Positions 7,098-28,030 of a stretch of DNA of 64,000 nt are shown piece by piece. The DNA comes from Pristiophorus japonicus (Eukaryota). Numbering within the stretch: the first letter of the stretch is position 1; the number at the start of each line of letters is the position of its first letter. Where the stretch lies: contig NC_091984.1 of NCBI RefSeq assembly GCF_044704955.1, positions 146,754,001 through 146,818,000 on the forward strand, read 5' to 3'. Both the position numbers and the translations under genes were made by a program. The notes under the pieces are model-generated. The model ran no database searches. It worked only from the letters and a program-made list of their open reading frames with translations, and was not told where the DNA came from.

Positions 7098-7497
7098 CTG
7101 GTTCTAGACTCCCTGCATCTGCCCTGACAAGCCCTATACGAATTTTGTATGTTTCAATGCGATCCCCTCTCATTCTTCTGAACTCGAGAGAGTATAGGCC
7201 TTGGAACTTGCTGAACCAAGGCGGGTAGATGGAGTTCAGATACAGATGTGCCATGATCTGATTGAATGGGGGAACAGGCTCGATTGGCTGAATGGCCTCC
7301 TCCTGTTCATTGTGTCCAGCAGCAGCTGTGTACCTCTCCGCAACCTCATCTTGACTTTTATCAGTCGCATCAGAGCCTTGATTCCCTCACCAGGGGGCTA
7401 GTGTTTCCAGATCAATGTCCAGCTGATCGATGCCATGAGTCAGACTCAGTGAGCACTGTCAGTGGGTGGAAAGGCTGCTCTAACTGCAGCCTTGTTC
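7096..7497 (+). repeat. Segmental duplicate of 26698-27118 (shared LINE junction plus unique sequence)
   Basis: Same sequence from ccctggttctagactccc through gctctaactgcagccttgtt in both places. ORF pairs 7201/26822 and 7266/26887 translate almost identically. Confidence 0.95.
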
Positions 7498-7645
7498 TAA
7501 AAGAAGAACGGTTTAAAGTAAACCCCAAGAAGGCACAGATCGGCCAGATGGAAGTCAAATTCCTGGGGCTGACTGTGCACGCTGGGGAAAGGGCCATAAA
7601 CAAAGCTAGAACGGAAGCAGTACAGGAGTTACCATCCCCTAACAC
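7498..7645 (+). mobile_element. Retrovirus/LTR-element RT fragment
   Basis: FKVNPKKAQIGQMEVKFLGLTV..R.I..ARTEAVQELPSP resembles the retroviral RT KKAQ..V.YLG region. Confidence 0.65.
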
Positions 7646-7659
7646 AGTATTCACTTTTA

Positions 7660-8641
7660 CTGTTTTTTTTTCCAAGGTGGATGGCCTCACATTTTCCGAC
7701 ATTGTATTCCATCTGCCAAACCTTAGCCCATTCGCTTAACCTATCTGTAATATACTGTTCTAAGAAACAATCCCGTATGCATTCTATGAATTCCTCCTCA
7801 AGGTTACCCCGTGCGATTTGATTTGACCAATCGATAAGTAGGTTAAAATCCCCCATGACTACTGCCGTTCCTTTTTCATATGCCTCCATTATTCCCTTGA
7901 TTATTGTCCGCCCCACCGTGAAGTTATTATTTGGGGGCCTATAAACTATGTCCACCAGTGACTTCATCCCCTTACTATCTCTAATCTCCACCCACAATGA
8001 TTCAACATTTTGTTCATTAGAGCAAATATCGCCTCTCATAACTGCCCTGATATCATCCTTTATTGACAGAGCTACCCCACCTCCTTTCCCTTCTTGTCTA
8101 TCTTTCAGAATTGTCAGATACCCCTGTATGTTTAATTCCCTGTCTTGGCCACCCTGCAACCACGTTTCTGTAATGGCCACCAAATCATACCCAATCATCA
8201 GCAAAGTGATGGAAAGTGTGGTCAACAGTGTTATCAAATGGCATTTACTCACCAATAACCTGCTCACAGATGCTCAGTTTGTGTTCCACCAGGACCACTC
8301 AGCTCCAGACCTCATTACAACCTTGGTCCAAACTTGGGGTGATAGAGGCAGAATTCCTCACCTTATTTAAAATGTACTTGGATGTGCACCTGAAGTTCTG
8401 TAACCTACAGGACTATGGACCTAGAACTGGAAAGTGAGATTAGGCTGGATAGCCGCTTGTTGGCCAACTCAGACACGATGGGCCGAATTGGCCTCCTCTG
8501 TGCTGTAAATATCTATGATTCTCTATGATTCTATGGACAAAAGAGCTGAATTCCAGAGGTGAGGTGAGAGTGACTGTCGTTGACATCAAGGCAGCATTTG
8601 ACCAAGTGTGGCATCAAGGGGCACGTTAAACCTGAAGTCAA
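7660..8641. mobile_element. Mosaic of LINE fragments (CR1 EN/RT deletion junction, CR1 3' end, second RT fragment)
   Basis: ORF 7629-8267 fuses EN to late RT. 8196-8335 and 8534-8641 read ISKVME..QF.F..DIKAAFDQVWH on +. Confidence 0.7.
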
Positions 8642-9546
8642 TGATGTGGGGTCTTTGTTTTCACACTCTATCTTGAATCGTCGACCTCGGGAATTATAGG
8701 GAAAAATACAATACAATGGCTGTTAGATCTCTTAATTTTCCATGAAATGCGAACTCCGGTGATATTTTAACATAATTTTATTCTGCAGCTGCAACAAGTT
8801 CTGGCCTTATGCCAGGTCCTTTGTCCTTCTGAGAACACATGGCAAAACATGGCTGTACTTATACCTGGCACAGTTTACAGAAAAGAACGCGCCTTCTTTG
8901 ACCTTATCGGCTCAATTAATATACTGTTAACCTTTAATGGCTTGCTGCCAAAGGTCCTGAAATGTCAAGATGATTGATGACTTAATGCAATGTGCTGAGT
9001 TACATGTAGAAGCTCGAACTAGGGGGTCGATGTATTCTCACAGCCTGTCTGTCTGCAGCCTGCTTGAATTCTCTATCAATCCCCCCTTTGATTCTTTCAC
9101 AAACTGAATCATAAAACATCAGGTATCACTGGTTAAACATTCCACAAAATAATTTCATACATGTTAATAGAGTTTCCTTCAAAAATTTGTTGATGTGTTT
9201 CGCCACATGTCCGGACTAATAGCTTCCACACAAATTTACTCCAACACGAATTCCATCGTGGCCACAATGAAAGTCTTGTTTTAGTAGGTTAATTAACCTT
9301 ATTCCAATTTAATCCAAATCAATATCTTAATTCAACCAGTAAACAACCTTCCCTTAAGCATAACATACCCCTGTGCCACGTACAGACGGTCTGCTGGGAC
9401 CTGCAAGGTGTCTCACCTGCGGGACAGCAGCTACTACCGCCTATTTGCAACAACATTTAATCAACATAAACAAACAATATAAAAGTAAAATAATTACAAC
9501 GTATAGAATTAAACTTTCCACCAATGAAGTTCCTATTGAACCTACT
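8642..9546 (-). mobile_element. Endogenous retrovirus remnant: env TM tail, PPT, 3' LTR (8642-9078)
   Basis: The minus strand reads GSIGTSLVESLILYVVIILLLYCLFMLIKCCCK*. Then PPT aaagggggg, a 2-nt gap (at), and an LTR TGAT...ATCA with TATA-like and AATAAA motifs. Confidence 0.75.
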
Positions 9547-12402
9547 GAATTAACTGTGCAAATAGATGTTAACAAATATGATGTGATTGGGATTACAGAG
9601 ACGTGGCTCCAGGATGATCAGGGCTGGGTACTCAACATCCAGGGGTATTCAACATTCAGGAAGGACAGAATAAAAGGAAAAGGAGGTGATGTAGCATTGC
9701 TGGTTAAAGAGGAGATTAATGCAATAGCTGGAAAGGACATTAGCTTGGATGATGTGGAATCTATATGGGTAGAGCTGCAGAACACCAAAGGGCAAAACAC
9801 GTTAGTGGGAGTTGTGTACAGACCTCCAAACAGTAGTAGTGATGTTGGGGAGGGCATCAAACAGGAAATTAGGGGTGCATGCAATAAAGGTGCAGCAGTT
9901 ATAATGGGTGACTTTAATATGCACATTGATTGGGCGAACCAAACTGGAAGCAATACGGTGGAGGAGGATTTCCTGCAGTGCATAAGGGATGGTTTTCTAG
10001 ACCAATATGTCGAGGAACCAACTAGGGGTTAGAGGCCATTTTAGACTGGGTGTTGTGTAATGAGAGAGGATTAATTAGCAATTTCATTGTGCGAGGCCCC
10101 TTGGGGAAGAATTACCATAATATGGTGGAATTTTGCATTAGGATGGAGAATGAAACAGTTAATTCAGAGACCATGGTCCAGAACTTAAAGAAGGGTAACT
10201 TTGAAGGTATGAGGCGTGAATTGGCTAGGATAGATTGGTGAATGATACTTAAGGGGTTGACTGTGGATGGGCAATGGCAGACATTTAGAGACCGCATGGA
10301 TGAACTACAACAATTGTACATACCTGTCTGGCGTAAAAAATAAAAAAGGGAAGGTGGCTCAACCGTGGCTATCAAGGGAAATCAGGGATAGTATTAAAGC
10401 CAAGGAAGTGGCATACAAATTGGCCAGAAATAGCAGCGAACCCGGGGACTGGGAGAAATTTAGAACTCAGCAGAGGAGGACAAAAGGTTTGATTAGGGCA
10501 GGGAAAATGGAGTACGAGAAGAAGCTTGCAGGGAACATTAAGACGGATTGCAAAAGTTTCTACAGATATGTAAAGAGAAAAAGGTTAGTAAAGACAAACG
10601 TAGGTCCCCTGCAGTCAGAATCAGGGTAAGTCATAACTGGGAACAAAGAAATGGCAGAACAATTGAACAAGTACTTTGGTTCGGTATTCACTAAGGAGGA
10701 CACAAACAACCTTCCGGATATAAAAGGGGTCAGAGGGTCTAGTAAGGAGGAGGAACTGAGGGAAATCCTTATTAGTCGGGAAATTGTGTTGGGGAAATTG
10801 ATGGGATTGAAGGCCGATAAATCCCCAGGGCCTGATGGACTGCATCCCAGAGTACTTAAGGAGGTGGCCTTGGAAATAGCTGATGCATTGACAGTCATTT
10901 TCCAACATTCCATTGACTCTGGATCAGTTCCTATCGAGTGGAGGGTAGCCAATGTAACCCCACTTTTTAAAAAAGGAGGGAGAGAGAAAACAGGGAATTA
11001 TACATCGGTCAGCCTGACATCGGTAGTGGGTAAAATGATGGAATCAATTATTAAGGATGTCATAGCAGCGCATTTGGAAAGAGGTGCCATGATAGGTCCA
11101 AGTCAGCATAGATTTGTGAAAGGGAAATCATGCTTGACAAATCTTCTGGAATGTTTTGAGGATGTTTCCAGTATTGTGGACAAGGGAGAACCAGTTGATG
11201 TGGTATATTTGGACTTTCAGAAGGCTTTCGACAAGGTCCCACACAAGAGATTAATGTGCAAAGTTAAAGCACATGGGATTGGGGGTAGTGTGCTGACATG
11301 GATTGAGAACTGGTTGTCAGACAGGAAGCAAAGAGTAGGAGTAAATGGGTACTTTTCAGAATGGCAGGCAGTGACTAGTGGGGTACCGCAAGGTTCTTTG
11401 CTGAGGCCCCAGCTGTTTACACTGTACATTAATGATTTAGACGAGGGGATTAAATGTAGTATCTCCAAATTTGCGGATGACACTAAGTTGGGTGGCAGTG
11501 TGAGCTGCGAGGAGGATGCTATAAGGCTGCAGAGCGACTTGGATAGGTTAGGTGAGTGGGCTAATGCATGGCAGATGAAGTATAATGTGGATAAATGTGA
11601 GGTTATCCACTTTGTTGGTAAAAACAGAGAGACAGAATATTATCTGAATGGTGCCAGATTAGGAAAAGGGGAGGTGCAACGAGACCTGGGTGTCATGGTA
11701 CATCAGTCATTGAAGGTTGGCATGCAGGTACAGCAGGCGGTTAAGAAAGCAAATGGCATGTTGGCCTTCATAGCGAGAGGATTTGAGTACAGGGCTAGGG
11801 AGGTGTTGCTACAGTTGTACAGGGCCTTGGTGAGGCCACACCTGGAGTATTGTGTACAATTTTGGTCTCCTAACTTGAGGAAGGACATTCTTGCTATTGA
11901 GGGAGTGCAGCGAAGGTTTGCCAGACTGATTCCCGGGATGGCGGGACTGACCTATCAAGAAAGACTGGATCAACTAGGCTTGTATTCACTGGAATTCAGA
12001 AGAATGAGATGGGACATCATAGAAACGTTTAAAATTCTGATGGGTTTAGACAGGTTAGATGCAGGAAGAATGTTCCCAATGTTGGGGAAGTCCAGAACCA
12101 GGGGTCATAGTCTAAGGATAAGGGGTATGCCATTTAGGACCGAGATGAGGAGAAACTTCTTCGCCCAGAGAGTGGTGAACCTGTGGAATTCTCTACCACA
12201 GAAAGTTGTTGAGGCCAATTCACTAAATATATTGAAAAAGGAGTTAGATGAAGTCCTTACTACTAGGGGGATCAAGGGGTATGGCGAGAAAGCAGGAATG
12301 GGGTACTGAAGTTGCATGTTCAGCCATGAACTCATTGAATGGCGGTGCAGGCTAGAAGGGCCGAATGGCCTACTCCACCTATTTTCTATGTTTCTATGTT
12401 TC
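9547..12402 (+). mobile_element. 5'-truncated CR1 LINE, ORF2 with stops and frameshifts
   Basis: ORFs 9373-10032, 10050-10241, 10267-10629 and 10651-12309 tile ORF2. Tail tttctatg at about 12383-12402. Same subfamily as 374-4864, opposite strand. Confidence 0.95.
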
Positions 12403-13997
12403 TAAAATACCATTTGCCTTCTTCACCGCCTGCTGTACCTGCATGCCCACTTTCAGTGACTGATGAACCATGACACCCAGGTCTCGTTGCACCTCCCCTT
12501 TTACTAATCTGCCACCATTCAGATAATATTCTGCCTTCCTGTATTTGCCTCCAAAATGTATAACGTCACATTTATCCACATTATACTGCAACTGCCATGC
12601 ATTTGCCCACTCACCTATCCTGTCCAAATCACCCTGCAGCCGCTTAGCGTCATCCTCACAGCTCACACCGCCACCCAGTTTAGTGTCATCTGCAAACTTG
12701 GAGATATTACACTCAAATCCTTCATCTCTATCGTGAATGTATATTGTAAAGAGCTGGATTCCCAGCACTGAGCCCTGCAGCACTCCACTAGTCACTGCCT
12801 GTCATTCTGAAAAGTACCCATTTATCCCGACTCTCTGCTTCCTGTCTGCCAACCAGTTCTCTATGCACGTCAGTACATTACCCCCAATACCACGCGCTTT
12901 GATTTTGCACAACAATCTCTTGTGCAGGACCTTGTCAAAAGCCTTTTGAAAGTCCAAATACACCACATCCACTGGTTCTCCCTTGTCCACTCTCCTAGTT
13001 ACATCCTCAAAAAATTCCAGAAGATTCGTCAAGCATGATTTCCTCTTCATAATTCCATGCTGACTTGGTCCGATCCTGTCACTGCATTCCAAATGCCCTG
13101 TTATTTCATCCTTAATGATTGATTCCAACATTTTCCCCACTACTGAAGTCAGGCTAACCGGTCTATAATTATCCGTTTTCTCTCTCCCTCCTTTTTTAAA
13201 AAGTAGTGTTACATTAGCTACCCTCCAGTCCACAGGAACTGATCTAGTGTCGATAGACTGTTGGAAAATGATCACCAATGCATCCACTATTTCTAGGGCC
13301 ACTCCTTTAAGTACACTGGGATGCAGACTATCAGGTCCCGGGGATTTATCGGCCTTCAATCCCATCAATTTCCCTGACACAATTTTCAGCCCAATAAGGA
13401 TATCCTTCTGTTCCTCCTTCTCACTAGACTCACTGTCCCCAAGTACATTCAGAAGGTTATTTATGTCTTCATTTGTGAAGGCAGAACCGAAATATTTGTT
13501 CAATTGGTCTGCCATTTCTTTATTCCCCATTATAAATTCACCTGAATCCAACTGCAAGAGACCTACATTGTCTTCACTAATCTTTTTCTCTTCACATATT
13601 TATAGAAGCTTTGGCAGTCAGTTTTTATGTTCCCTGCAAGCTTCCTCTCGTACTCTATTTTCCCCCTCTTAATTAACTCCTTAGTCCTCCTCTGTTGAAT
13701 TCTAAATTTCTCCCAGTCCTCAGGTTTCTTCCTTTTTTACACAAATTATATGCCTCATCCTTTGCATTAACACTATCCTTAATTTCCCTTGTTAGCCATG
13801 GTTGAGCCACCTTCCCCGTTTTATTTTTACTCCAGACGAGGATGTACAATTGCTGAAGTTCATCCATGTGATCGTTAAATGTTTGCCATTGTTTATCCAC
13901 CATCAACCCTTTAAGTATCCTTTGCCAGTCTATTCTAGCCAATTCACGCCTCATACCGTCAAAGTTACATTTCCTTAAGTTCAGGACCCTAGTTTCC
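12403..13997 (-). mobile_element. CR1 LINE internal fragment, related subfamily
   Basis: ORFs 12394-12795, 12802-13557 and 13673-14050 carry FADD, LDFQKAFDKV and KSPGPD. Confidence 0.9.
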
Positions 13998-14475
13998 AAT
14001 TCTCTCTTGCCTCCAATATATCCAATTCCTTCTTGTAGACCTGGGCCCACAGCACCAGACTGCCCCTAACCTGGGCACAACATTGGCATCTCATTCATTC
14101 ACTGGGACAGGAAATGCCTGGTGTGGGAAATGGGACCTAGGGCTCTGAACATTCCGTCTCCTCTCCTGAGGAAGGCTTCATGTTGGGGTCCAGTTCCAGG
14201 GGCCCCGACAGCACGTTCCGACCTCACCCACTTCCCCATTCCACGTGTGTAAGCCTGGACCCTCTCAGCAGGATATCCAACTGCAGGAGGCCGCACCACT
14301 GTGTCCAGCACTGTCCTCACCCGAAATCCACACACAGTCTGCATTGATCTGGTGCCTTTAACGTGCCAAAGGTCTCAAGACGCTTGCCAGCAAGATATAG
14401 CTGGCCACAGGGCGCCTCACCCTCAGCACAGACTCTCAGAGCGCACTGAGGTCAGTTGCAATGGGTCAGCGGGGT

Positions 14476-14731
14476 TCAATAGAAGCAATAGGAAAGAATA
14501 ATATTTCCTGGTCCCGATTGGAGGACCAATAGGAAGGAGTCATGTTTCCTGATCCCTATTGAGGGACCAATAAGAAGGAGCCAAATTTCCTGGGCCCTAT
14601 TGGAGGACCAATAGGAAGGAGCCATGTTTCCTGGTCCCAGTTGGAGGACCAATAGGATGGAGCCATGTTGCCTGGGCCCTATTGGAGGACCAATAGGAAG
14701 GATCCATGTTGCCTGGGCACTATTGGAGGAC
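14476..14731. repeat. 41-bp minisatellite, about 6 copies, 0.7-1 kb upstream of the V leader
   Basis: The attggaggaccaataggaaggagccatgtttcctgggccct unit starts at 14517, 14558, 14599, 14640, 14681 and 14722. Confidence 0.92.
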
Positions 14732-15296
14732 GAGTGGGACATGGAGTCCATGTTAGACGTGGAGTGCGGACCCTTCCTGTTGTAAATGTGGGATCATCGG
14801 CACCTGATCCCAGTAAAAATACCCTGACCTGGAGTGGGGCCATGGAAGGGGAAGGAGAGGGGAAGGGATTCGAAAATGTTCTGAGCGGACAGGATGGGGC
14901 AGTGGGTCAGAACCTGTCCTGTCGCTCCAGCTCACACTGATGGGGTGAGGATCTCCTCCCTCTGCTGGGCCTTCATGAAATGAGCTTTCTGTCCAAACCG
15001 GTCCCGACTGAGAATAGGCCCACAGCACAGAACGGCCCTTAATTGGGCAATTAACAACCAGTGCACTGAGAGAGGCCAAGGGATGGCCACTGTGGGGAAT
15101 GGGGCCTTACTCCAGGAGAAGGCATGCTCTGGGGTCAAGGGTTAACATCCATTGGTGGGGCAGGGCACAGGGAGGTTTACTCTGCATTTCAGTGTGCTGC
15201 ACCGGGGAGTCTGTGGGGAAGAGAGAGAGAGGGACAGACATAGTGACAGTGAGAGAGAGAGAGGGAGTTGGTGGGAGCGAGCGGTCGGGATAGAAG

Positions 15297-15396
15297 AAGA
15301 GGAAGTGAAATGTGCTGACGTGGCTTTCTCTGTGTGAAGACATTTACATACTGAGGGATGGGCAGTGAGACTCTCACAGGCTGCAGGTTTATAAAG
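15297..15396 (+). promoter_or_regulatory. Ig V promoter: ETS-IRF composite, TGACGTGG, variant octamer, TATA
   Basis: AAGAGGAAGTGAAA 15297-15310, TGACGTGG 15316-15323, ATTTACAT 15342-15349 (1 mismatch to ATTTGCAT), TATAAA 15390-15395, ATG at 15455 in CACCATG context. Confidence 0.75.
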
Positions 15397-15454
15397 CAGA
15401 GCCCAGTGAAGGGCAGTTTATCAGTAAGCAGGCACAGGGACAGGAGCAGACACC

Positions 15455-15503
15455 ATGATTTCACCCATCCAGCTGATCTGGCCTCTGGCATTCTGTGTCG
15501 CAG
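15455..15503 (+). CDS. IGKV: Ig kappa-type light chain leader exon (MISPIQLIWPLAFCVA)
   Basis: Hydrophobic signal peptide; phase-1 donor CAG|gtacc; 187-nt intron ending ttccccctcag at 15690. Confidence 0.93.
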
Positions 15504-15690
15504 GTACCAATCTCTCTCCTTCCACGTTTAATATCTCCCTGCTGTCGATTTCTGTCCAACTCTACTGACCAGTGATTGAAGGGCAAATGCTGACACTAGA
15601 GGAGAGCTCAGTGTCTCGAGCAATCTCTCATTTTACAGCGTCTTTCTGTGACAGTGCTTACTTCACTTTCTTTCCCTATTTCCCCCTCAG

Positions 15691-15989
15691 GTATCAGTGG
15701 GGACATCATCATGACCCAGTCTCCCCCGGTGCTGCCAGTGAGTGAGGGACAGACTGCAACCATCACCTGTACCGCCAGTGCATCCGTTAGCAAGTATGTT
15801 AATTGGTACCAGCAGAAAGCCGGGCAGAAACCCACTCTGCTGATCTATTACGCAACATCTCGTTTCACTGGAACCTCCGATCGCTTCACCGGCAGTTACC
15901 AGTCCAACACGTTCACCCTGAGCATCAGCAACGTGCAGAGCGAGGATGTTGCAGACTATCACTGTCAGCAATATAACTGCTACCCTCTA
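15691..15989 (+). CDS. IGKV: Ig kappa-type (type III/NS4-like) V segment, unrearranged, open frame
   Basis: [67 protein letters not shown], followed directly by an RSS. Confidence 0.97.
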
Positions 15990-16017
15990 CACTGTGATAC
16001 ACAGCCGTACAAAAACC
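15990..16017 (+). promoter_or_regulatory. V recombination signal sequence, 12-bp spacer
   Basis: CACTGTG-atacacagccgt-ACAAAAACC with a consensus nonamer. V-12/J-23 is the kappa-type configuration. Confidence 0.97.
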
Positions 16018-16116: not shown

Positions 16117-19100
16117 TGTTATGTCTTCAACCAGCATTGTAACCCATGTATAATCTGACCTAATTTGTACACTGTGAAAACAATGACCAGGAGGTGGGAG
16201 ACACTCCTAACCTGGACCTTCAGGTATAAAAGGGGAAGCTCCACCCACCTTCATCACTTGAGTGCGAAGGAATAAAGGACAGGTCACAGACTGACCTTCT
16301 CTGAAGCATGGGCCTCGTGTGCATTTATACTGTATAGTAAGGACGTATCAATGGCGACGAGAAACTGGGATTTAAACCACGCGAGCATGGCCACTAGCAG
16401 AACAGATGAGAGGTACTGTGTTAAGGAATGGTTGGGACAGAGATTCAACATTGTTAAAGCAACACACAGTTCTCCAGGCAGACAACGGCAGTCAGGCATG
16501 CCCCAACATGTAGTCGAACCCAGAGGGGGAGTTCGACAGAGACAATGACAAGTTGAACGGCGATTCACGCCATTGCAAGGGGCAATGCGGCCAGTAATGG
16601 GGCCATCAACACCTGTTAGTGGCGCACTCAGGGACAGTCACAGGAGCAGTCAGGGACGATCAACTGGCAAGGGACCTTTTGTTTCCAACAGCAGCTCATG
16701 TTGGAGGCGTGGAGGCACACACTCAGCCGGAGTTTGCAGAGATGAGCAAAATACCTGCAGAAATTGCAGAAATGAACGCTGGGGGAAATCGCTGGAAGCT
16801 GAAGTTCAGCGAGTTCATGTGGAGCACGTATACAGTTCATACACCAGGACGCCACCGATAATGATGAACGTGCTCCTCAATGGCATCCCAGTATCAATGG
16901 AGTTAGACACGGGTGCCAGCCAGTCCCTGATGGGTATCAAACAGTTCGAAAAGTTGTGGGCGTCCAAGGCCAGGAGGCCAAAATTATCACCGATTGACGC
17001 ACAGCTACGGACTTACATAAAGCACATCATTCCGGTGCTAGGCAGCGCCACGGTTGTGTGACCCACAAAGATTCGGAGAACAGGTTGCCACTCTGGATTG
17101 TCCCAGGGGACGGTCCCGCACTACTGGGGAGGAGTTGGCTTGCTGTCATGTCCTGGAAATGGGGCGATGTCAATGCAATTTCCTCTGTGGAGCGAGTATC
17201 ATGCTCACAGATCCTGGACAAATTTGACTCATTATTTCAACCCGGCATCAGCACTTTCATGGGGGCCAAGGTAGTGATTCACATAAACCCGGATGCCAGG
17301 CCAGTAAACCACAAGGCTAGAGCGGTGCCGTAAGTGATGCGGGAAAAGATAGAAGGCAAATTGGACCGCCTGCTGAGGGAAGGCATCATCTCTCCAGTCG
17401 AATTCAGTGACTGGGCAAGCCCAATCATGCCAGTGCTCAAGGCGAATGGGTCGGTCAGGATATGTGGTGATTACAAGGCCACCATTAATCGGGTGTCACT
17501 CCAAGACCAGTACCTGCTACCGAGAGCGGAGGACCTCTTTGCGACGTTATCCGGTGGCAAACTTTTTTCAAAATTGGACCTGACCTCAGCTTACAGTCTG
17601 GAGCTGGCGAGTGAGTCAAAGAAGCTGACCACCATCACGACACACAAGGGGTTGTTTGAGTACAACAGATGTCCGTTCGGGATTCGCTCGGCCGCCGCGA
17701 TGTTCCAATGAAATATGGAAAGCCTCCTCAAGTCGATTCCAGGGACGGTGGTTTTTCAGGACGACATCCTCATCACGGGTTACGATACTGAAGAACAACT
17801 CCACAACCTGGAGGAGGTGCTACACAGACTGCACCGGGTAGGCTGTGACTGAAAAAGGCGAAGTGCATCTTCCTAGCTCCACAGGTAGAATTCCTTTGGA
17901 TGAGGGTAGCAGCAGACGGGATCAGCCCTACTGCATCCAAGACTGAAGCGATCCAGAGAGCACCCAGATCCCGTAACATGACGGAGCTGCGTTCGTTCCT
18001 GGGGCTCCTGAACTATTTTGGTAACATTCTTCCGAAATTGAGCATGCTGCTAGAGCCGCTACACGTGCTCCTACGCAAAGGTCGTGAATGGGTTTGGGGG
18101 GACAGCCAGGAAAGGGCTTTTAATAGAGCATGCAATTTGTTATGCTCCAACACTCTGTTAACACTATACGACCCATGTAAGAAACTTGGGTTATCGTGCA
18201 ATGCATCGTCCTATGTTGTCGGTTGTGTGTTGCAGCATGTCAATGTCAAGGGTCAGTTATAGCCAGGAGCTTATGCCTCGAGGAGTCTGTCCCAGGCAGA
18301 AAGGGGTTACGGGATGGGAGAAAAAGAGGCGCTCGCATGTGTATATGCGGTAAAGAAAATGCACCAATACCTGTTTGGCAGGAAATTTGAGCTGGAGACA
18401 GATCACAAACCCTGAACCTCCCTTTTGGCCGACAACAAGGCCATAAATGCAAACGCATCGGCCCGCATACAGAGGTGGGCACTCACGTTAGCCGCCTATG
18501 ACTATACAATTCGACACAGACCGGGTACTGAAAACTGCGCCGATACACTCAGCAGGCTCCCACAAGCCACCACTGAGGGGGCTACTGAGCATGCTGTTGA
18601 GATGGTCATAGCTGTTGAAGCTTTCGGAAGTGAAGGCTCACCCATGACAGCCCATCAGATTAAAGTCTGGACAAACAGAGACCCGCTATTGTCTCTAGTC
18701 AAGAAATGTGTCCTGAATGGGGACTGGGCAGCCACGTACAGGGCATGCCCTGAGAAATTTAAACCATTTCACAAGCGCAGGGATGAACTCTCGATTCAGA
18801 CTGATTGCCTACTGTGGGGAAACCGCAGTAGTCATGCCCCAGATGTGCAGAGAGGTGTTCATCAGAGAACTCCACAATGAGCACCCGGGCATTGTCATGA
18901 TGAAGGCAATTGCCAGGTCACACGTTTGGTGGCCAGGGATAGACGCAGATCTGGAACTTTGTGTTCGCAGGTGCAACACATGTGCCCAGCTGGGCAATGC
19001 GCCCAGTGAAGCCCCCCTTAGTCCTTGGTCATGGCCCGCCAAGCCTTGGTCACGCATCCATGTGGACTACGCAGGTCCTTTCATGGGGAAAATGTTTTTG

Positions 19101-20236
19101 GTTGTAGTAGACGCCTGCTCCAAATGGATCGAGTGTGACATTTTAAATTCAAGCACATCCTCTACCACGTTAGAAAGTCTACGGGCAATGTTCGCCGCCC
19201 ACGGGTCTACCGGACGTCTTGGTCAGCGACAATGGCGCGTGCTTCACAAGCACTGAATTCCAGGACTAAATGGCAGGCAATGGAATTAACCATGTTAAAA
19301 TGGCACCGTTCAAGCCTGCCTCAAACGGCCAGGCAGAACGAGCAGTGCAGATAATCAAACAGGGGACGCTTAGAATCCAAGGGGGCTCCCTACAAAGGCG
19401 CTTATCACGCCCCCTGTTGGCCTATAGATCCCGACCACACTCGCTCACAGGGGTTCCACCCGCAGAGCTGCTAATGAAAAGGATGCTCAAAACCCGACTA
19501 TCCTTTATACACCCGACCATGAAAGAAATTGTCCAGAGCAGGCGCTAGCCACAATATGAGTACCATGACAGGAATGCGAGGGCATGATGTATTGATGTAA
19601 ATGATCCTGTTTTTGTCCTCAACTACGCTGCAGGGCCCAAATGGCTCGCAGGCACTGTGATTGCCAAAGAGGGAAATAGGATTCTGGTAGTTAAACTTAC
19701 CAATGGACAAATCTGCCGCAAACACGTGGATCAAACAAAAAGGAGGCTCAGCAACCCCATCGCAGAAGCAGAGGAAGAACACGATGTAGAGTTCACTCCA
19801 CCACAGGTGACCGAACACCGGAACCAAAGGTTGGAGAGCCCAATCACTGTGGGCCGTCTGGATAGGCCTGAGGCACCGCAAAAAGCAAACACTCAGGCCA
19901 GCGCCCAACAACCGGAGCCCCAACTCAGGCGCTCTACAAGAGAGCATAAACCATCAGAGAGACTCAACCTGTGATCCCAATAAGACTTTGAGGGGGGAGG
20001 TGATGTCATGTATTCAACCAGCATTGTAACCCATGTATAATCTGACCTAAGTTGTACACTGTGAGAACAATGACCACGAGGGGGAGACACTCCTAACCTG
20101 GACCTTCAGGTATAAAAGGGGAAGCTCCACCCACCTTCATCACTTGAGTGCTAAGGAATAAAGGACAGGTCACAGACTGACCTTCGCTCAAGCATGGGCC
20201 TCATATGCATTTATACTGTATAGTAAGGACCTATCA
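16117..20236 (+). mobile_element. Ty3/Gypsy (Mag-like) LTR retrotransposon, gag-deleted and pol-disrupted, in the V-J interval
   Basis: LTRs 16117-16350 and 20004-20236 (TG..CA); PBS TGGCGACGAG (tRNA-Ser-like); PPT about 19990-20000; protease LDTGA, RT FQDD, integrase HH..CNTC and DYAGPF; near-TSD cagcc/caccc. Confidence 0.95.
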
Positions 20237-20529
20237 CACCCCACAGTTATATATAATATATAATAATGGACACACAGCCCCACGTCCTGTAAGGTTTTAC
20301 ACATGACTGACATTCGGCTCGATGGGAGTGATGGCAGGAATATTCAGCTGGAAGTTGCAGTGAATTGGGAAAGGATGGAGTGGGTCAGAGAGGAGTTGGG
20401 GCTGTGTCTTCATCACTGAGAATCTCACAGCTCTACTCTGTACATTCAGACAGCACGGAGACACTGGGTGGTCCCTGTGTCCTCAATCCAAATAATCTCA
20501 CAAACCCCCCACTATTGAGAGGGCCACAA

Positions 20530-21280
20530 CTTATAAAACCCAAAGCATAAACATGAAAGGAAAGTGAACAAGTGAAATCGTCATGTTCTTTCCCTGCCCA
20601 CCCCACACTCCAGGCCCTGTGGTGCCCACCCGTCGCAGAAGGCCTCAGGCCTAATCTGGGCTCCGTCCCCAGGGCCACCCGGGTGTGGTCTACACCGCCG
20701 AAGGGAGGCAGGCAGGCAGTGTGTCCACTCCATGGGCCCCGTCTAACTGGGACAACTGGGACCTGTGGATGGTCACCTTGGCCAGGCCCAGTAGCAGGCC
20801 CATGGGGAGGCCCTCTGACCTGCCCGCTCCCCCCACACGGGGTGACCAGGCCCAGGAGCAGGCCCACGGGGAGGCCCTCCGACTTGCCCGCTCCCCCCGC
20901 ACCGGGTGACCAGGCCCAGGAGCGTGGGACTGAAGTGGAGCCAAAAATCGAGCAGCAGCCCCTTCAAATAGTGGAAGAGGGGCTGCATCCTCTCACACTC
21001 CACGTACACACGGGTCACAGACTGAGGAAACAGGTTTCTAAAGCCCCTGAAACTCATTATTTTATAATGATCTACGAGGAAGGCCTGTGTCAGCAACACA
21101 AATATCTCGCTTGCAGACGGAGCCCGTTGTTCAAGGGGCACAAAGAGGTGAGCCCTGTGTGACGGGGACTTTCATTCTCCAGCAATTCCGTGGCCCCAGG
21201 GTTACCGCCTGATGGGGCGGGAAGGGCAGCTGGGAGATTTGTCCCCAACTCTCCTGGGTACTGCCACAGGCAACTCGGAA
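20530..21280 (-). mobile_element. Tx1/L1-clade non-LTR retrotransposon relic with an internal 64-bp tandem duplication
   Basis: The minus strand reads VYVECERMQPLFHYLKGLLLDFWLHFSPTLL and GLLLGLAKVTIHRS, like a Tx1 ORF2 C-terminus. The duplicated unit lies at about 20782-20922. Confidence 0.65.
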
Positions 21281-21281
21281 A

Positions 21282-21550
21282 CAGAGAGAGAGGGAGGGAG
21301 TGAGTGAGGGAGGGGGAGTGAGTGAAGGAGGGAGGAAGGGAGAGGGAGAGCGAGAGAGGGGGAGAGGGAGAGGGAGAAAAAGTGAGGGGGAAAGAGTGCG
21401 AGAGGCAGTCAGAGAGAAGCAAAATGAGAGAGTGAGAAAGAGAGATAAAGTGAGGGAGACAGTGAGACGCTGAGAAAGAAACCCACACACAGACACACAC
21501 ACACACACACACACAGACAGACAGAGAGCGGGGGAGAGAGACTGAGTGAG
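21282..21550. repeat. GA-rich tract plus (CA)n abutting the J RSS
   Basis: About 200 bp of mostly G/A, then a cacacac run at 21485-21515. Confidence 0.9.
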
Positions 21551-21561
21551 CCAGGGATGGA

Positions 21562-21600
21562 GGATATTGTACAGCCACTGCACTGGAAGCTGTCACTGTG
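21562..21600 (-). promoter_or_regulatory. J recombination signal sequence, 23-bp spacer
   Basis: GGATATTGT (21562-21570), 23 bp, CACTGTG (21594-21600). Heptamer is consensus; nonamer has 2 mismatches. Confidence 0.93.
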
Positions 21601-21635
21601 GCTCACATTCGGTAAAGGAACCAAGCTCAGACTGA
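21601..21635 (+). CDS. IGKJ: Ig light chain J segment (LTFGKGTKLRL)
   Basis: FGxG motif and phase-1 donor A|gtaagt at 21636; the only J seen before C. Confidence 0.97.
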
Positions 21636-21756
21636 GTAAGTAAACCCCAATGCTCTGTTATTAACACTTTAAATACTGAATCTTTCTCAGACACAAATGA
21701 TGAATATGAGAAGGTTTTAGTTTACATATGATTACACTCGAGCCTCCCGTCTTTTC

Positions 21757-22160
21757 TCATCTAAATCTATCAGCATAACCCTCTATTCCCTTCTCCCTCA
21801 TATCCCTGTCTAGCCTCCCCTTAAATACATCGATACTATTCACTTCAATCACTCCCTGTGGTAGCGAGTTCCACATTCTCACCACTCGCTGGGTAAAGAA
21901 TTTTCTCCTGAATTCCCGATTGGATTTCTTGCTGACTATCTTATATTGATAGTCTCTAGTTCTGCTCTTCCCCACAAGTGGAAACACACTCTCTGTATCC
22001 ACTCTATCAAAACCTTTCCTAATGTTAAAGACCTCTATCAGGTCACCCCTCAGCCTCAAAAGAAAAGAGCCCCAGCCTGTTCACCCTTTCCTGACATGTA
22101 CACCCGCACATTTCTGGTCCCATCCTTGTAAACCCTCTCTGCACCCTCTCCAGTGCCTCT
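21757..22160 (-). mobile_element. CR1 3' fragment in the J-C intron
   Basis: RLRGDLIEVF..FFTQRVVRMWNSLP (ORF 21757-22059). Confidence 0.85.
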
Positions 22161-22720
22161 GTATGGGTTATATAATATGGTGGGGAGCTGCGGTGAATGA
22201 AAGGGTTAATTGAAGAGTGCTGTGTATGACAGGGAGCCCGGCTGTATTCCTTTACCCACACTCCCCCTTCACCCAGCAAAGTATAAGTAACGAACTGTTA
22301 CCCACCGTGTGGAGGAGATCTGGACGTTGGCACACTGCGGTCCCATCCCTGCACCATCCCCGGAAATCACTCCCGAGCCTCCTGCCTGTCTCAGTGTGAC
22401 AGACACGGTGTGTGAGACACGGGCAGAGTGTGGGTGTGAGTGAGTGAGCTCGCTGGGGGCAGTCTGTGCTCCTGTCACAGTCTCTGATATAACTGAGCTC
22501 AGCCTCAGCACACTGACACTCCCGAGGTCCCGCCTCCCCCAGCTCCAACTCTGATCTGTCCAGTCCCCGCTCACCTCCTGTCCAACTTCTGATCGCAAAC
22601 AGGGGCAGCAGAGCTCGCAATCCGGCAGCTGCAGTGCTCCAGGGTTGTGGGGAGACTCTCAGTTGCTGTTTCTGTGGTTCGAGTTCAGGCCGATATTTAT
22701 CCCTCGACCTACATCGCTTA

Positions 22721-23045
22721 AACATAGAAACATAGAAAATAGGAGCAGTAGTAGGCCATTCGGCCCTTCGAGTCTGCACCGCCATTCAATATAATCATGG
22801 CTGATCCTCTATCTCAACACCATATTCCCATTTTTTCCCCATACCCCTTGATGCTTTTTGTTTCTAGAAATCTATCTATCTGCCTCTTAAATATATTCAG
22901 TGACTTGGCCTCCACAGCCTTCTGTGGCAGAGAATTCCACAGGTTCACCACCCTCTGAGTGAAAACATTTCTCCTCATCTCATTTGTAAATTTCCTATCG
23001 CGTATCCTGAGACTGTGACTCCTTGTTCTAGACTTCCCAGCCCCG
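22721..23045 (-). mobile_element. CR1 3' end with tail in the J-C intron
   Basis: aacatagaaacatagaaaatagg tail and the CR1 3' UTR. Confidence 0.85.
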
Positions 23046-23392
23046 GACTGTCGGAGGTGCCGTCTTTCAGATCAGACGTTAAACCAAGGCCCTGTTTGCC
23101 CTCTCAGGTGGATATAAAAGATCCCATGCCACTATTTTGAAGATGAGCAGGGGAGTTCTCCCCGGTGTCCTGGTCAATATTTCTCCCTCAACCAACGTGA
23201 CAAAAGAACAGATTATCATGTCGTTATCACATCGCTGTTTGTGGGAGCTTGCTGTGCACAGATTGGCTGCCGTGTTTCACACATTACAACAGTGACGACA
23301 CTCCAAAAGTCCTTCATTGGCTGTAAAGCGCTTTGAGATGTCCGGTGGTTGTGAAAGGCGTAATATAAATGCAAGACTATCTTTTTTTTTTC
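23046..23392 (+). mobile_element. Deu-domain SINE (SacSINE1/AmnSINE-like), 5'-truncated
   Basis: gtgccgtctttc..agacgttaaacc..aaagatcccatg..gtaaagcgctttg..tataaatgcaag core, recognised from memory of DeuSINE consensus sequences. Confidence 0.7.
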
Positions 23393-23620
23393 ATCACCTT
23401 TACATCAAATGCATTTATATTTAGATGCAACTTATCAAGCTAGGCAAAGAAGATTAAGAATTAGTGTTGCTCGCCTCTAATGGTTAATCACCAGCCAGGA
23501 GTTCATTCACCCAGCTCTCCGTTATCAGATGAAAACACACGGAAACACCACAGTGACACACACACACACACACACACATACTAATATACACCTATTAAAC
23601 ATCCTTCTCCTCCCTTTCAG

Positions 23621-23949
23621 GCCGAGGGAAGACCCCACCCACGCTGACCCTGCTGCCCCCCTCCCCGGAGGAGGTCACGACCAAGGGCACTGCCACCCTG
23701 GTGTGCCTCGCCGATCACTTCTACCCCGATGCGGTGGAGGTGGAGTGGAAGAAGGACGGGGCGACCATTTCGGCCGGGGTCCAGACCAGCGACTACCTGC
23801 GAGCTTCGGACAACACCTACAGTGTCAGCAGCCTGCTGACCCTCTCTGGCTCCGACTGGGAGTCCAACGCCAGCTTCTCCTGCAGCCTCACCCACGAGAG
23901 CCTCTCCTCTCCCCTCAGCAAGGGAGTCAGGAGAGCAGAATGTGCGTAG
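23621..23949 (+). CDS. IGKC: Ig kappa-type light chain C exon
   Basis: Acceptor tccctttcag; phase matches J. PTLTLLPPS..ATLVCLADHFYP..WKKDG..YSVSSLLTL..FSCSLTH..ECA*, with the penultimate interchain Cys. Confidence 0.97.
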
Positions 23950-24111
23950 CGTGTCAGCGACAGTCCGCGGGGGAGACGCAACTTTAAATAGAACAGGGGG
24001 TGAGCCGGGAGGGCAAAGGTCATTGTCAGCACTGCATTTCTACTCTCTTCCTTCTCGGGACTGGGTCAGGGAAAGCATCTGAGGGTCAGGGAGTAAGGCA
24101 CGTTATTGGGG

Positions 24112-24385
24112 CAGTATCGAGGGAGCTTTACTCTGTATCTAACCCGTGCTGTACCTAACCTGGGAGTGTTTGATGGGACAGTGTAGAGGGAGCTTTACTC
24201 TGTATCTAAGCCGTGCTGTACCTGACCTGAGAGTGTTTGATGGGACAGTGTAGAGGGAGCTTTACTCTGTATCTAATCCGTGCTGTACCTGACCTGAGAG
24301 TGTTTGATGGGACAGTGTAGAGGGAGCTTTACTCTGTATCTAACCCGTGCTGTACCTGCCCTGGGAGGGTTTGATGGGACAGTGT
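24112..24385. repeat. 67-bp tandem repeat x4 in the predicted IgL 3' UTR
   Basis: gggagctttactctgtatctaa starts at 24121, 24188, 24255 and 24322. Confidence 0.95.
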
Positions 24386-24580
24386 TGACTCGTGCTGCCA
24401 AGTCAAACCTCTCGAAGATGCTGAAGACTGTCAGTAGAGTAAAACTAATGTTAAACTGCGAAGTGCCGCTTCAGTAAGCAGACCCCCTCCCTGCTCACCC
24501 TGCTGTTACAAATCAAGGTTTTGTCCCCGTTTGAAGGGACAGGATTCTCACGGTGTGGAGAAAATCCCCACAACTATTTT

Positions 24581-24681
24581 AATAAAGCTGCATTCTCCCT
24601 GTGAATGTCTCCAACTCGCTCTCGCTGGGCTGTTTATTCAAGTCTTGTTTCTATAAATGTGAATCTGTAAAAGGCAATAAA
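24581..24681 (+). terminator. Two candidate polyadenylation signals for the IgL transcript
   Basis: AATAAA at 24581-24586 and 24676-24681, each followed by GT/T-rich sequence; first AATAAA noticed after the stop. Confidence 0.65.
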
Positions 24682-25267
24682 CGTGAAGAATATTCAGTCT
24701 GTGTCTGGCGACTGCTTTGGAAATGTCCCACCTCCCCCTCAGCTGCATTTCAGTAAGTGTCTGTCCTGATTGGCTGGGTGAGCTGTCAATCAATGGCACA
24801 TCAGCAGGAGATTTGATTCAAAGCCAATTATCAATCATTTTGAAACGATCAATTTGACCTCGAACCCCTGGAGTGCACAAGATTAAACACAGAGACTCTA
24901 AAAGCTGCTGGGATTAAACCCTCCCAGTCTGAGGGTTGGCTCTCACTCTGCACACTGGGGGTGTTGGGGCAGCTCCTGATGGTGGGATCGCACTGTGCAC
25001 TGTGTGCTGACTGCTGGGGGCAATCTGGGGGCAGGAGGCCACAGTCACAACGTTGCATTCTCTCTCCTTAACGTGTGGCTCGTGGCAGCAGCACAAAACT
25101 GCACCGAGTGAGGCCTCAGCTTCGGGAGAGGAGCAGTCAGTGTATCACCCTGTACTTGTCCCTGAGTGTTAGTGTGTCTTACCCAGCACCGCCTGTCGGG
25201 GTGTAGTGTGTGTGTGTTTATGTGTGTGAGTGACTGTGACCCAGCACTCTCTGTTGGTGTGTGTTCA

Positions 25268-26166
25268 GAACATAAGAAATAGGAGCAGGACTAGACCATT
25301 TGCTCCCTCGCGCCTGCTCCGCCATTCACTAAGATAATGGATTATCTGATCATCTCCACTTCCCCACCCGTTCCCCAGAATCTTTCACTTCCTTATCGCT
25401 CAATAATCTATCTATCGCTGCCTTAAATATATCCAATGACCCAGCCTCCACAGCTCTCTGGGACAGAGAATTCCACAGATTTACAACGCTCTGAGAGAAG
25501 AAACTCCTCCTCAACTCAATTTTAAATGGGCGGCCCCGAATTCTGAGACTATGTCCCCTAGTTTTAGTTTCCCCTATGAGTGGAAGTATCCTCTCTGCAT
25601 CCACCTTGTAGAGCACCCTCATAATCTTATATGTTGTGATACGACCATCTCTCATTCTTCTGAACTCCAATGTGTATCAGCCCAACCTGCTCAAACTATC
25701 TTCATAAGTCAACCTCCTCAGCTCCGAAATCGACCTCATGAACGTTCTCTGAACAACCTCCAATTCAAGTACATCCTTCATTAAATACGGAGACCAAAAT
25801 TGTACACAGTACTCTCGGTGTGGTCTCAGCAATACCCTGTACAGTTGTAGCAGGTCTTCCCTGCTTTTATACTGTATCCCCCTTGCAATAAAAGCCAACA
25901 TTCCATTTGCCTTCCTGATCACTTGTTGTACTTGCATACTAAACTTTTGTGTTTCATGCGCAAGGACCCCCAGTTCCAACTGTAATACAGCACTTTGCAA
26001 TCTTTCTCAATTTAACTTCTAATTTATTTTTCTATTATTTCTGCCAAAGTAGATAACCTCACATCTTCCCACATTATACTCCATCTGCCAAATTTTTGCC
26101 CACGCACTTAGCCTGTCTAAATCCTTTTGCAGATTTTGTGTCCTCACAATTTGCTTTCCTGCCCAT
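25268..26166 (-). mobile_element. CR1 3' fragment, truncated by an LTR
   Basis: ORFs 25350-25670 and 25677-26000; same family as 5628-6230. Confidence 0.85.
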
Positions 26167-26412
26167 TGTCATGTATTCAACTGTCATTGTAACCCATGAA
26201 TAAACTGACCTAAGTTGTACACCATGAGAACATTGATCACTAGGTGGTGAATTGTGGGAGACACTCCTAACCTGGACTTTCAGGTATAAAAGTGGAAGCT
26301 CCACCTACCTTCATCACTTCAGTGCTGGCTAATAAAAGTTACTGGTCACAGACTGACTTTCTCTCAAGTATGGGCCTCATGTGCATTTATACTGTACAGT
26401 AAGGACATATTA
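26167..26412 (+). mobile_element. Solitary LTR related to the V-J Gypsy LTRs
   Basis: tgtcatgtattcaa..cactcctaacctggac..ggtataaaag..tgcatttatactgta..gtaaggac; no TSD. Confidence 0.9.
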
Positions 26413-26419
26413 ACAATGA

Positions 26420-27118
26420 TCAGGAGGATGCCATTCAGCCTCTCGAGCCTGCTCCACCATTCAATGAGATCATGGCTGATCTTCTACCTCAACTCCACTT
26501 TCCTGCACTGTCCCCATATCCCTCGATTCCCTTAATATTAAAAAATCTATCGATCTCCGTCTTGAATATAGTCAAAGACTGAGCCTCCACAGCCCTCTGG
26601 GGGAGAGAATTCCAGAGATTCACCACCCTCTGAGTGAAGAGATTTCTCCACATCTCAGACCTAACTGGCCGAACCCTTATTCTGAGACTGTGACCCCTGG
26701 TTCTAGACTCCCCAGCCAGAGGAAACATCCTCCCTGCATCTACCCTGTCAAGCCCTGTCAGAATTGTGTATGTTTTAATGAGATCCCCTCTCATTCTTCT
26801 AAACTCGAGAGAGTATAGGCCTTGGAACTTGTGGAACCAAGGCGGGTAGATGGAGTTCAGATACAGATGAGCCATGATCTGATTGAATGGGGGAACAGGC
26901 TCGAGGGGCTGAATGGCCTCCTCCTGTTCATTGTGTCCAGCAGCAGCTGTGTACCTCTCCGCAACCTCATCTTGACTTTTATCAGTCGCATCGGAGCCTT
27001 GATTCCCTCACCAGGGGGCTGGTGTTTCCAGATCAATGTCCAGCTGATCGATGCCATGAGTCAGACTCAGTGAGTGCATTTCAGCGGGTGGAAAGGCTGC
27101 TCTAACTGCAGCCTTGTT
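26420..27118. repeat. CR1 3' fragments plus unique block duplicated at 7096-7497
   Basis: ORF 26489-26875 is CR1. The unique part (about 26930-27118) has CAGCTG x2, TCACCAGGGGGC and TGAGTCA. Confidence 0.9.
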
Positions 27119-27124
27119 CGAATT

Positions 27125-27910
27125 CATTTGGGGAGGGGCAGCAAAGCAAGGGAATACACAATAAATGGGAGGGTAATGAGAGGGGTGGAGGAATGGAGGG
27201 ACCTTGGAGTGCATGTCCACAGATTGCTGAAGGTAGCAGGCCAGGTCGATAAGGTGGTTAAAAAGGCATACGGAATAATTGCCTTTATTAGCTGAGGCAT
27301 AGAATACAAGAGCAGGGAGGTTATGCTTGAACTTTACAAAACACTAGTTCGGCCACAGCTAGAGTACTGTGTGCAGTTCTGGTCACCACATTACAGGAAA
27401 GATGTGATTGCACGAGAGAGGGTACAGAGGAGATTCACGAAGATGTTGCCGGGACTGGAGAATTTTAGCTATGAGGAAAGATTGGATCTGCTGGGGCTGT
27501 TTTCCTTGGAACAGAGGAGGCTGAGGGGAGACGTTATTGAGGTGTATAAAATGATGAGGGGCCTAGATAGAGTGGATAGAATGGACCCATTTCCCTTAGC
27601 AGAGGGGTCAATAACCAGGGGGCATAGATTTAAAGTAATTGGTGGAAGGTTTAGAGGGGAGATGAGGAAACAATTCTTCACCCAGAGGGTGGTGGGGGTC
27701 TGGAACTCACTGCCTGAAAGGGTGGTAGAGGCAGAAATCCTCACCACATTTAAAAAGTACTTGGATGTGCCCTTACAGTGCCGTAACCCACAGGGCTATG
27801 ATCCAGAGCTGGAAAGTGGGATTAGGCTGGGTAGCTCTTTGTTGGCCGGCACAGACACGATGGGCCGATATGGCCTCCTTCTGTGCTGTAATTTTCTGTG
27901 ATTCTATGAT
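27125..27910 (+). mobile_element. CR1 3' fragment
   Basis: ORF 27323-27901 LVRPQLEYCVQFWSP; tail ttctgtgattctatga. Confidence 0.9.
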
Positions 27911-28014
27911 CGTGCTGGTGGTGTTGACCACTTTAAAAGTCGCAGCATACATTTTATTGAAGCTATTTTCTTCCCCGGTTTCCCCGCTGCCAATAATTGG
28001 ATCAATCGATGCTG

Positions 28015-28030
28015 TAGCGCCCCCTTGTGG
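28015..28030 (-). promoter_or_regulatory. Candidate CTCF site in non-repeat sequence
   Basis: Reverse complement CCACAAGGGGGCGCTA differs by 1 base from the CCACCAGGGGGCGCTA consensus. Confidence 0.5.

What the first reader, a model, noticed from the sequence alone, without database searches (positions are those of the whole stretch)
7387..28030. Convergent CTCF-like motifs bracket the V-J-C cluster: candidate per-cluster insulation
Seen: forward TCACCAGGGGGC at 7387 (paralog at 27008) and a near-consensus reverse site TAGCGCCCCCTTGTGG at 28015-28030 in a unique island. Known: convergent CTCF sites bound cohesin loops that confine RAG scanning in mammals, and shark Ig clusters rearrange essentially within a cluster. 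Inference: each duplicated cluster may carry its own boundary cassette, giving a loop of about 20 kb that enforces intra-cluster V-J joining. The forward motif is only a moderate match.
Basis: partly seen in the sequence, partly recalled or inferred. Interest (0 to 1): 0.7.

Follow-up and report, generated by a model that had tools for sequence, protein, structure and literature searches.

The report
Shark kappa 3' enhancer-insulator candidate
Most copies of this shark's antibody kappa light-chain gene carry, downstream, a conserved 50-base stretch that is likely an enhancer and one strong CTCF-type motif that would act as a one-sided barrier, but the proposed pair of motifs enclosing the gene occurs in this one copy only and is likely a rearrangement accident.

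Summary
The motifs are where stated, but the 20-kb convergent bracket is not a feature of these clusters. The forward motif scores 4-6 bits (rank 105 and 43 in the window), is unconstrained among paralogs, and normally lies 3' of C, 1 kb before the reverse site; it lies upstream of V in 1 of 66 V genes, this one, whose 5' flank is rearranged. The reverse site (28015-28033) is strong (20 bits), confined to the kappa array (about 93 copies) and faces V; its constraint is weak to inconclusive. The strongly conserved piece is a 50-base block right after the forward motif (27024-27073; E-box and AP-1-like words; 7 changes against 43.5 expected), a candidate 3' enhancer. Best reading: C, likely enhancer, one V-facing CTCF site, working like mouse dE-kappa plus rsCBE; in-cluster joining needs no loop, since V and J lie about 1.8 kb apart. 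No binding, activity or cross-species data. The scan noted a different, upstream enhancer candidate before; this 3' block was not found in its notes.

The parts
7109..7500 (+). Orphan copy of the 3' module's first half (repeat end, weak motif, conserved core), cut off at 7500 and followed by a reverse-transcriptase-like fragment; no reverse site follows
   Evidence: 94% to 26730-27122; 4863-7500 matches a 3'-flank paralog L086 at 93%; module map; frames read; the junction is not spanned by any listed contig
7384..7402 (+).
7403..7452 (+). Second, identical copy of the conserved 50-base core
15301..15454 (+). V promoter and 5' UTR: ETS-IRF-like word at 15301, octamer-like and TATA-like words (motif names recalled); positive control for conservation
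15455..15503 (+). Leader exon (MISPIQLIWPLAFCVA)
15692..16017 (+). V exon, open frame, with 12-spacer RSS at 15990-16017
16117..20236 (+). LTR retrotransposon between V and J (LTRs 95% alike), stretching the V-J distance to 5.9 kb; its 3' LTR holds a forward 17-bit motif at 20071-20089
21562..21635 (+). 23-spacer RSS (21562-21600) and J segment (21601-21635, FGKG)
23621..23949 (+). Kappa-type C exon
27005..27023 (+). Forward CTCF-like motif in its normal place 3' of C: weak (6.2 bits), unconstrained
27024..27073 (+). Conserved 50-base core with E-box, ATCGAT and AP-1-like words: candidate 3' enhancer
27905..28110 (.). Array-specific island between repeats, with slower CpG decay than its flanks
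28015..28033 (-). Strong CTCF-type motif (20.0 bits) facing C, J and V; about 93 copies, all in the array or its unplaced contigs
31180..31198 (-). 21.7-bit motif in the end repeat of an LTR-type element; not a cluster feature (2 of 70 loci, one being this window)

Best explanation
Most kappa V-J-C clusters of this array carry a 3' module made of a conserved 50-base block that is likely a B-cell enhancer and, 1 kb further, one V-facing CTCF-type motif that would act as a one-sided downstream barrier, while the upstream 'forward site' at 7387 is a weak motif in a stray copy of that module, likely placed there by a local rearrangement. Shown: positions, copy numbers, orientation, scores, conservation. 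Inferred: the core binds E-proteins and AP-1-family factors and activates its own cluster; CTCF at 28015 stops cohesin moving 3', keeping enhancer contacts pointed at the cluster's V promoter, as rsCBE does behind the mouse distal kappa enhancer; V-to-J joining stays in the cluster because the two RSS are about 1.8 kb apart in one activated patch, not because of a loop. Odds: bracket accidental 0.9, core regulatory 0.6, CTCF bound and acting as barrier 0.45.
For: Map of 66 V, 55 J, 97 C, 82 forward-motif and 93 reverse-site copies: canonical order V-J-C-core-site. Forward motif upstream of V in 1 of 66; this window lacks the upstream module that 10 of 10 other intact clusters carry. Core: 7 changes against 43.5 expected in 49 paralogs, 0 of 2000 permutations; P 0.0065 within the non-repeat segment alone; the same scan picks out the promoter/5' UTR and the J RSS. 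53 of 77 copies of a core 35-mer are identical to the window's; mean mismatches 0.34 against 0.59 for a C-exon 35-mer and 1.24 for the reverse-site 35-mer. Reverse site: 20 bits; its 15-mer occurs 34 times outside the array against 6-9 expected and 0 for the reversed control; 6 of 28 changes fall on branches leading to intact clusters against 39% of flank changes, P 0.038; CpG decay in the island 4.1 against 6.9 steps, P 0.014. Oriented CTCF sites mark skate TAD borders (PMC10115646, passages). Mouse rsCBE lies just 3' of the distal enhancer and faces V (bioRxiv 10.64898/2026.04.12.717890, passages).
Against: Reverse site overall not constrained: 28 changes against 29.2 expected; score-retention tests P 0.09-0.30; the 9 against 16 at high-information positions is nominal (P 0.043) on a sample picked by a pattern that covers the motif; damaging changes 3 of 13 on intact branches, P 0.18, and one intact cluster's 3' copy is broken by an insertion. 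The core is as conserved in broken clusters as in intact ones (0.14 and 0.12 changes per site), which gene conversion or a cold spot would also give. 5 of 26 intact-looking clusters lack the site within 36 kb, 3 of them the whole module; 5 of 82 forward-motif copies have no core match. In 10 of 51 clusters the module lies between J and C. 12 C genes of other light-chain types show no shared strong motif within 10 kb on either side. All tests are within one genome, post hoc, with a recalled matrix.
Confidence: 0.5

Rival explanations
1. Neutral passengers: the reverse motif (and perhaps the core) are chance words in the ancestral cluster's flank, multiplied by recent segmental duplication and kept alike by gene conversion.
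For: Motif changes equal the neutral expectation (28 against 29.2; 68% of 19-base windows have as few); island diversity 0.048 is like that of flanking repeats, 0.058-0.080; core conserved in broken clusters too; module missing from some intact clusters and from other light-chain types.
Against: Core conservation far exceeds its neighbours under a whole-block permutation and matches coding sequence; no hit of 18 bits or more in 340 kb of other Ig/MHC loci, so such a motif is rare by chance; changes in the motif lean to broken clusters.
Confidence: 0.3
2. Enhancer only: the core is a real 3' enhancer, the CTCF-type motif is bound weakly or not at all and does nothing for the cluster.
For: Strong constraint on the core, weak on the motif; 15 of 51 V-J-C clusters have no site within 16 kb of C or in the intron.
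Against: 0 of 22 copies in intact clusters score under 15 bits (1 of 23 with the insertion copy) against 14 of 48 others, though copies are not independent; slower CpG decay in the island.
Confidence: 0.3
3. One reading: convergent sites at 7387 and 28015 form a 20-kb loop, repeated per cluster, that confines RAG to its own V and J.
For: The two motifs are convergent and enclose V-J-C here; shark rearrangement is reported as in-cluster (PMC2435157, PMC5192425, passages); at least one strong site lies between 29 of 39 neighbouring V-J units.
Against: Forward motif weak, unconstrained, upstream of V in 1 of 66; no shared forward site upstream; convergent strong pairs isolate one unit in 5 of 40; primary mouse kappa joining is diffusional rather than by scanning (PMC11153149, abstract and Discussion).
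Confidence: 0.04

Closest known systems
Mouse/human Igk 3' region: distal enhancer dE-kappa followed by rsCBE (bioRxiv 10.64898/2026.04.12.717890; abstract and passages seen)
   Same: Order C, enhancer-like element, CTCF motif facing V.
   Different: Here one 50-base core and one site per small cluster, about 90 times over; no Cer/Sis counterpart found between V and J; no RS element looked for; no occupancy data; homology to the mammalian elements not tested.
Cer/Sis and IGCR1 convergent CBE systems that limit RAG scanning (PMC11153149; abstract and Discussion seen)
   Same: CTCF-type motif at an Ig locus; V 12-RSS and J 23-RSS as in kappa.
   Different: No shared upstream or V-J-interval site; V-J distance about 1.8 kb, not megabases.
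Shark kappa (NS4, type III) multi-cluster light chains (PMC2193156, PMC5192425; passages seen)
   Same: Split V-J-C clusters in tens of copies, some germline-joined; C 77-92% identical to shark light chains, most of them labelled kappa-like.
   Different: The passages seen describe no 3' enhancer or CTCF site.
Ig enhancers / DIVAC elements with E-box motifs (PMC3972084; search listing only)
   Same: Short conserved non-coding block with an E-box near a light-chain C exon.
   Different: No ETS-IRF word in the core; activity untested.

Membership tests
Convergent CTCF loop anchors (insulated domain) | Two strong motifs facing each other around the domain | tested here: not met
   Forward motif 4.1 bits, rank 105; reverse 20.0 bits
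Convergent CTCF loop anchors (insulated domain) | Same arrangement at paralogous clusters | tested here: not met
   1 of 66 V genes; 5 of 40 units isolated by strong pairs; no shared forward site upstream
Convergent CTCF loop anchors (insulated domain) | CTCF/cohesin occupancy and a contact loop | not testable with these tools
   Only 4 DNA runs of one sample hold the island
3' CTCF-binding element of an Ig locus (rsCBE-like) | Strong motif 3' of C and of the enhancer, facing V | tested here: met
   21 of 26 intact-looking clusters
3' CTCF-binding element of an Ig locus (rsCBE-like) | Purifying selection on the motif | tested here: inconclusive
   28 against 29.2 changes; P 0.04-0.30 across tests
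3' CTCF-binding element of an Ig locus (rsCBE-like) | Occupancy and insulation | not testable with these tools
   no chromatin data found
Ig light-chain 3' enhancer | Conserved non-coding block 3' of C | tested here: met
Ig light-chain 3' enhancer | Lymphoid factor motifs | tested here: inconclusive
   E-box and AP-1-like words seen in the sequence (names recalled); no matrix scan or enrichment test
Ig light-chain 3' enhancer | Constraint tied to intact genes | tested here: not met
   0.12 against 0.14 changes per site on intact and broken branches
Ig light-chain 3' enhancer | B-cell-specific activity | not testable with these tools
   needs reporter or ATAC data
Chondrichthyan Ig kappa (NS4/type III) | Split V(12-RSS)-J(23-RSS)-C cluster in one orientation | tested here: met
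Chondrichthyan Ig kappa (NS4/type III) | C domain groups with shark kappa chains | tested here: met
   79% to a chain named kappa, 43-48% to the 12 other light-chain C exons of this genome; the two closest records are auto-labelled lambda-like or unlabelled

The most novel reading that the evidence does not exclude
Every shark kappa mini-locus carries its own miniature of the mammalian kappa 3' region, an enhancer backed by a V-facing CTCF site, so the enhancer-plus-barrier layout predates the split of sharks and bony vertebrates and is what lets about 50 neighbouring clusters be switched on one at a time.
Probability: 0.2. Interest if true: 0.7.

Novelty: new member of a known kind. Interest (0 to 1): 0.4.

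Why it matters
How sharks activate one or a few of many linked Ig clusters per B cell is open. The finding removes one attractive explanation (a per-cluster convergent loop) and supplies two precise, testable elements, a 50-base core and one CTCF-type site, together with natural variants (clusters that lack the module, carry it in the J-C intron, or have a damaged site) whose usage in expressed repertoires can be compared. None of nine paper searches listed a paper on CTCF sites or a 3' enhancer at shark Ig clusters; the library lacks most subscription papers.

Tried and rejected
Cross-species test: the run search found only 4 DNA runs of one sample, each with under half of the words, no independent support; a metagenome scan with a 23-mer of the core gave one match inside a bacterial reading frame with no flanking similarity, rejected as chance. 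No related shark genome is held. Laying 3 runs on 7200-7800 showed low depth over the core and high depth over the flanking repeats, but no listed piece spans the 7500 junction, so an assembly error there is not excluded. RNA gene for the core or island: no Rfam match at E<=1 in 26400-28700. Dispersed repeat: rejected, all pattern matches lie in the array or its unplaced contigs. A 3' array of several CTCF sites: rejected, the other hits at 29519, 31180 and 34515 lie in or at LTR-type repeats and 31180 recurs in 2 of 70 loci. First scoring of the forward motif used a wrong register and was redone. The first protein search returned mislabelled fragments. Look-ups of earlier notes by place and sequence found nothing for this element. 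No complex or fold job was run.

Full report
Setting. The window is G000:C8:146,754,001-146,818,000 of a 5.9-Gb genome. It holds one split light-chain cluster: leader, V with a 12-spacer RSS at 15990, J with a 23-spacer RSS, and C. C is 77-92% identical to shark light chains, most labelled kappa-like, and 43-48% to 12 other light-chain C exons of this genome, so it is kappa (NS4/type III). An LTR retrotransposon at 16117-20236 lies between V and J. Pattern searches with up to 3 mismatches found 66 V, 55 J and 93 C copies (4 more C), nearly all in C8:143.3-148.8 Mb and four unplaced contigs that may be partly redundant (C1278 is identical to the window where compared). These counts are lower bounds.

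Observation. The strings are at the stated places. Scored with the JASPAR MA0139.1 matrix, recalled from memory, the reverse site R (28015-28033) gives 20.0 bits, p about 1e-7, reached in 2 of 100 shuffled windows. The forward motif F gives 4.1 bits at 7384 and 6.2 at 27005, rank 105 and 43 of about 128,000 positions; it fails at two informative positions. The window's top hit, 21.7 bits at 31180, lies in an LTR-type repeat and recurs in 2 of 70 loci.

Paralog test of the bracket. R has 91 pattern matches (2 more seen) and F 82, all in the array or its unplaced contigs. The usual order is V-J-C-F-R: 64 of 82 F copies lie within 1.1 kb upstream of an R, and 51 of 97 C exons have an R within 20 kb downstream. 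F lies upstream of a V within 30 kb in 1 of 66 cases, this window. Here 4863-7500 matches the 3' flank of another cluster at 93%, is cut at 7500 and runs into a reverse-transcriptase-like fragment. So this cluster's 5' flank is rearranged and 7387 is a stray 3' module. No shared forward site was found in 7.5 kb upstream of 40 of the 66 V genes; in 27.5 kb upstream of 11 intact clusters there was 1 forward hit of 15 bits or more and none of 18. Using only strong R copies on C8, the tightest convergent pair isolates one V-J unit in 5 of 40 cases and holds 2-5 units in 33.

Is R under selection? I fetched all 70 C8 copies (the 21 on unplaced contigs were left out). On a tree of 71 sequences built without the motif, R has 28 changes against 29.2 expected; 9 against 16 at ten high-information positions (nominal P 0.043); score-retention tests give P 0.09-0.30. 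The sample was picked by a pattern covering the motif, which favours conservation. Classing clusters as intact by V frame, RSS, J and C (two by J pattern and map only), 6 of 28 changes fall on branches to intact clusters against 39% of flank changes (P 0.038), damaging ones 3 of 13 (P 0.18); copies under 15 bits are 0 of 22 in intact clusters against 14 of 48 elsewhere, after leaving out one intact cluster's 3' copy that an insertion reduces to 4.1 bits. CpG sites in the island decay more slowly (4.1 against 6.9 steps; 9 and 28 sites; P 0.014). The 15-base core word occurs 34 times outside the array against 6-9 expected, with 0 for the reversed control. Together: a plausible real site, selection unproven. 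F shows none (18 against 14).

What is conserved. A scan over the 1.9-kb block in 49 paralogs found one significant window, 27024-27073, immediately after F: 7 changes against 43.5, 0 of 2000 permutations; P 0.0065 when only the non-repeat segment is permuted (P 0.002 on 52 copies). The same scan marks the promoter/5' UTR (0 of 500) and the J RSS (P 0.012), so it detects functional DNA; one V-J spacer window also reached P 0.03. A 35-mer of the core has 77 matches, 53 identical to the window's; mean mismatches 0.34, against 0.59 for C, 0.60 for F, 1.24 for R. It holds an E-box, ATCGAT and an AP-1-like word (names recalled) and matches no Rfam family. Against an enhancer: it is equally conserved on branches to broken clusters; 5 of 82 F copies have no core match (one inspected has a 10-base deletion) and these follow V-J-C clusters without an R; 3 of 26 intact-looking clusters lack the whole module within 36 kb; in 10 of 51 clusters the module lies in the J-C intron, mostly with a non-canonical J.

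Other Ig loci. Ten kb on each side of 12 other light-chain C exons, 2 MHC-like exons and 10 kb 3' of 6 heavy-chain exons show no homolog of the island or F segment and no hit of 18 bits or more in 340 kb. The heavy-chain windows may not reach the gene ends, and R itself lies 4-16 kb from C, so this is a partial test.

Mechanism. V and J patterns are 1.6-2.3 kb apart in 50 of 51 clusters, the nearest foreign V 22 kb or more (median 66 kb, n=39). A plain distance model gives the own V a median share of 0.91-0.99 of contacts (inference). Nurse shark IgH joining is reported within miniloci without long-range contraction (PMC2435157, passages; review PMC5192425, passages), whereas zebrafish light chains do join between clusters (PMC3014032, abstract). 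[quoted passage not shown] From established loop-extrusion rules (recalled), a V-facing site 3' of C would stop cohesin moving downstream; it would not shield J from upstream foreign V genes. Oriented CTCF sites at TAD borders exist in skate (PMC10115646, passages). The layout C, enhancer-like core, V-facing site parallels the mouse distal enhancer and rsCBE (bioRxiv 10.64898/2026.04.12.717890, abstract and passages; its supplements were not seen and do not bear on the claim). It works like that arrangement by position; membership is untested.

Verdict. Observation partly confirmed; the convergent per-cluster loop is not supported; a per-cluster 3' module with a candidate enhancer and one CTCF-type site is real as sequence and unproven in function. 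New member of a known kind; interest 0.4.

Noticed in passing
window 16117-20236: LTR retrotransposon between V and J triples the V-J distance (5.9 kb against 1.6-2.3 kb); its 3' LTR carries a forward 17-bit CTCF-type motif (20071) convergent with the 28015 site, which would leave V outside. An A+T-rich 45-base unit occurs on both sides of the element.
   Followed up: partly
window 1-14017: The normal 5' flank is replaced: the upstream ETS-IRF/E-box module of 10 of 10 other intact clusters is missing in 27.5 kb, and a second intact 3' core sits 8 kb upstream of V.
   Followed up: partly
L120 and L130 (V at C8:146963962 and 148180040): Germline-joined V-J genes, as known for nurse shark NS4.
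   Followed up: no
C8:143980037, 144824787, 145922502, 146176299 and relatives: A subfamily with the 3' module between J and C; the copies inspected have a J reading FSKG or FDKG.
   Followed up: partly
window 21562-21570: The J nonamer differs from the V nonamer at two places and recurs in most of the J copies inspected; a weaker J RSS could itself limit long-range joining.
   Followed up: no
window 14953-14971: A 13.7-bit reverse CTCF-type motif about 0.75 kb upstream of the V exon recurs in about half of 40 V loci (18 identical copies); it faces away from the cluster.
   Followed up: no
window 20071, 26234, 29519, 31180, 34515, 44731, 52962: Several LTR-type elements carry CTCF-type motifs in or next to their LTRs, so they may spread such motifs in this genome.
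   Followed up: no
C8:177.87-179.52 Mb (L163-L174): A second light-chain array of 12 or more C exons in two groups, on the same contig as kappa.
   Followed up: partly
window 20950-20989: A moderately conserved 40-base window in the V-J spacer (5 against 23 changes, P 0.03).
   Followed up: no
window 15693-15989: This V has His for Tyr before the second conserved Cys and an extra Cys in CDR3.
   Followed up: no
P0001, P0002: Shark kappa fragments filed under bacterial names in the protein database, likely contamination.
   Followed up: no
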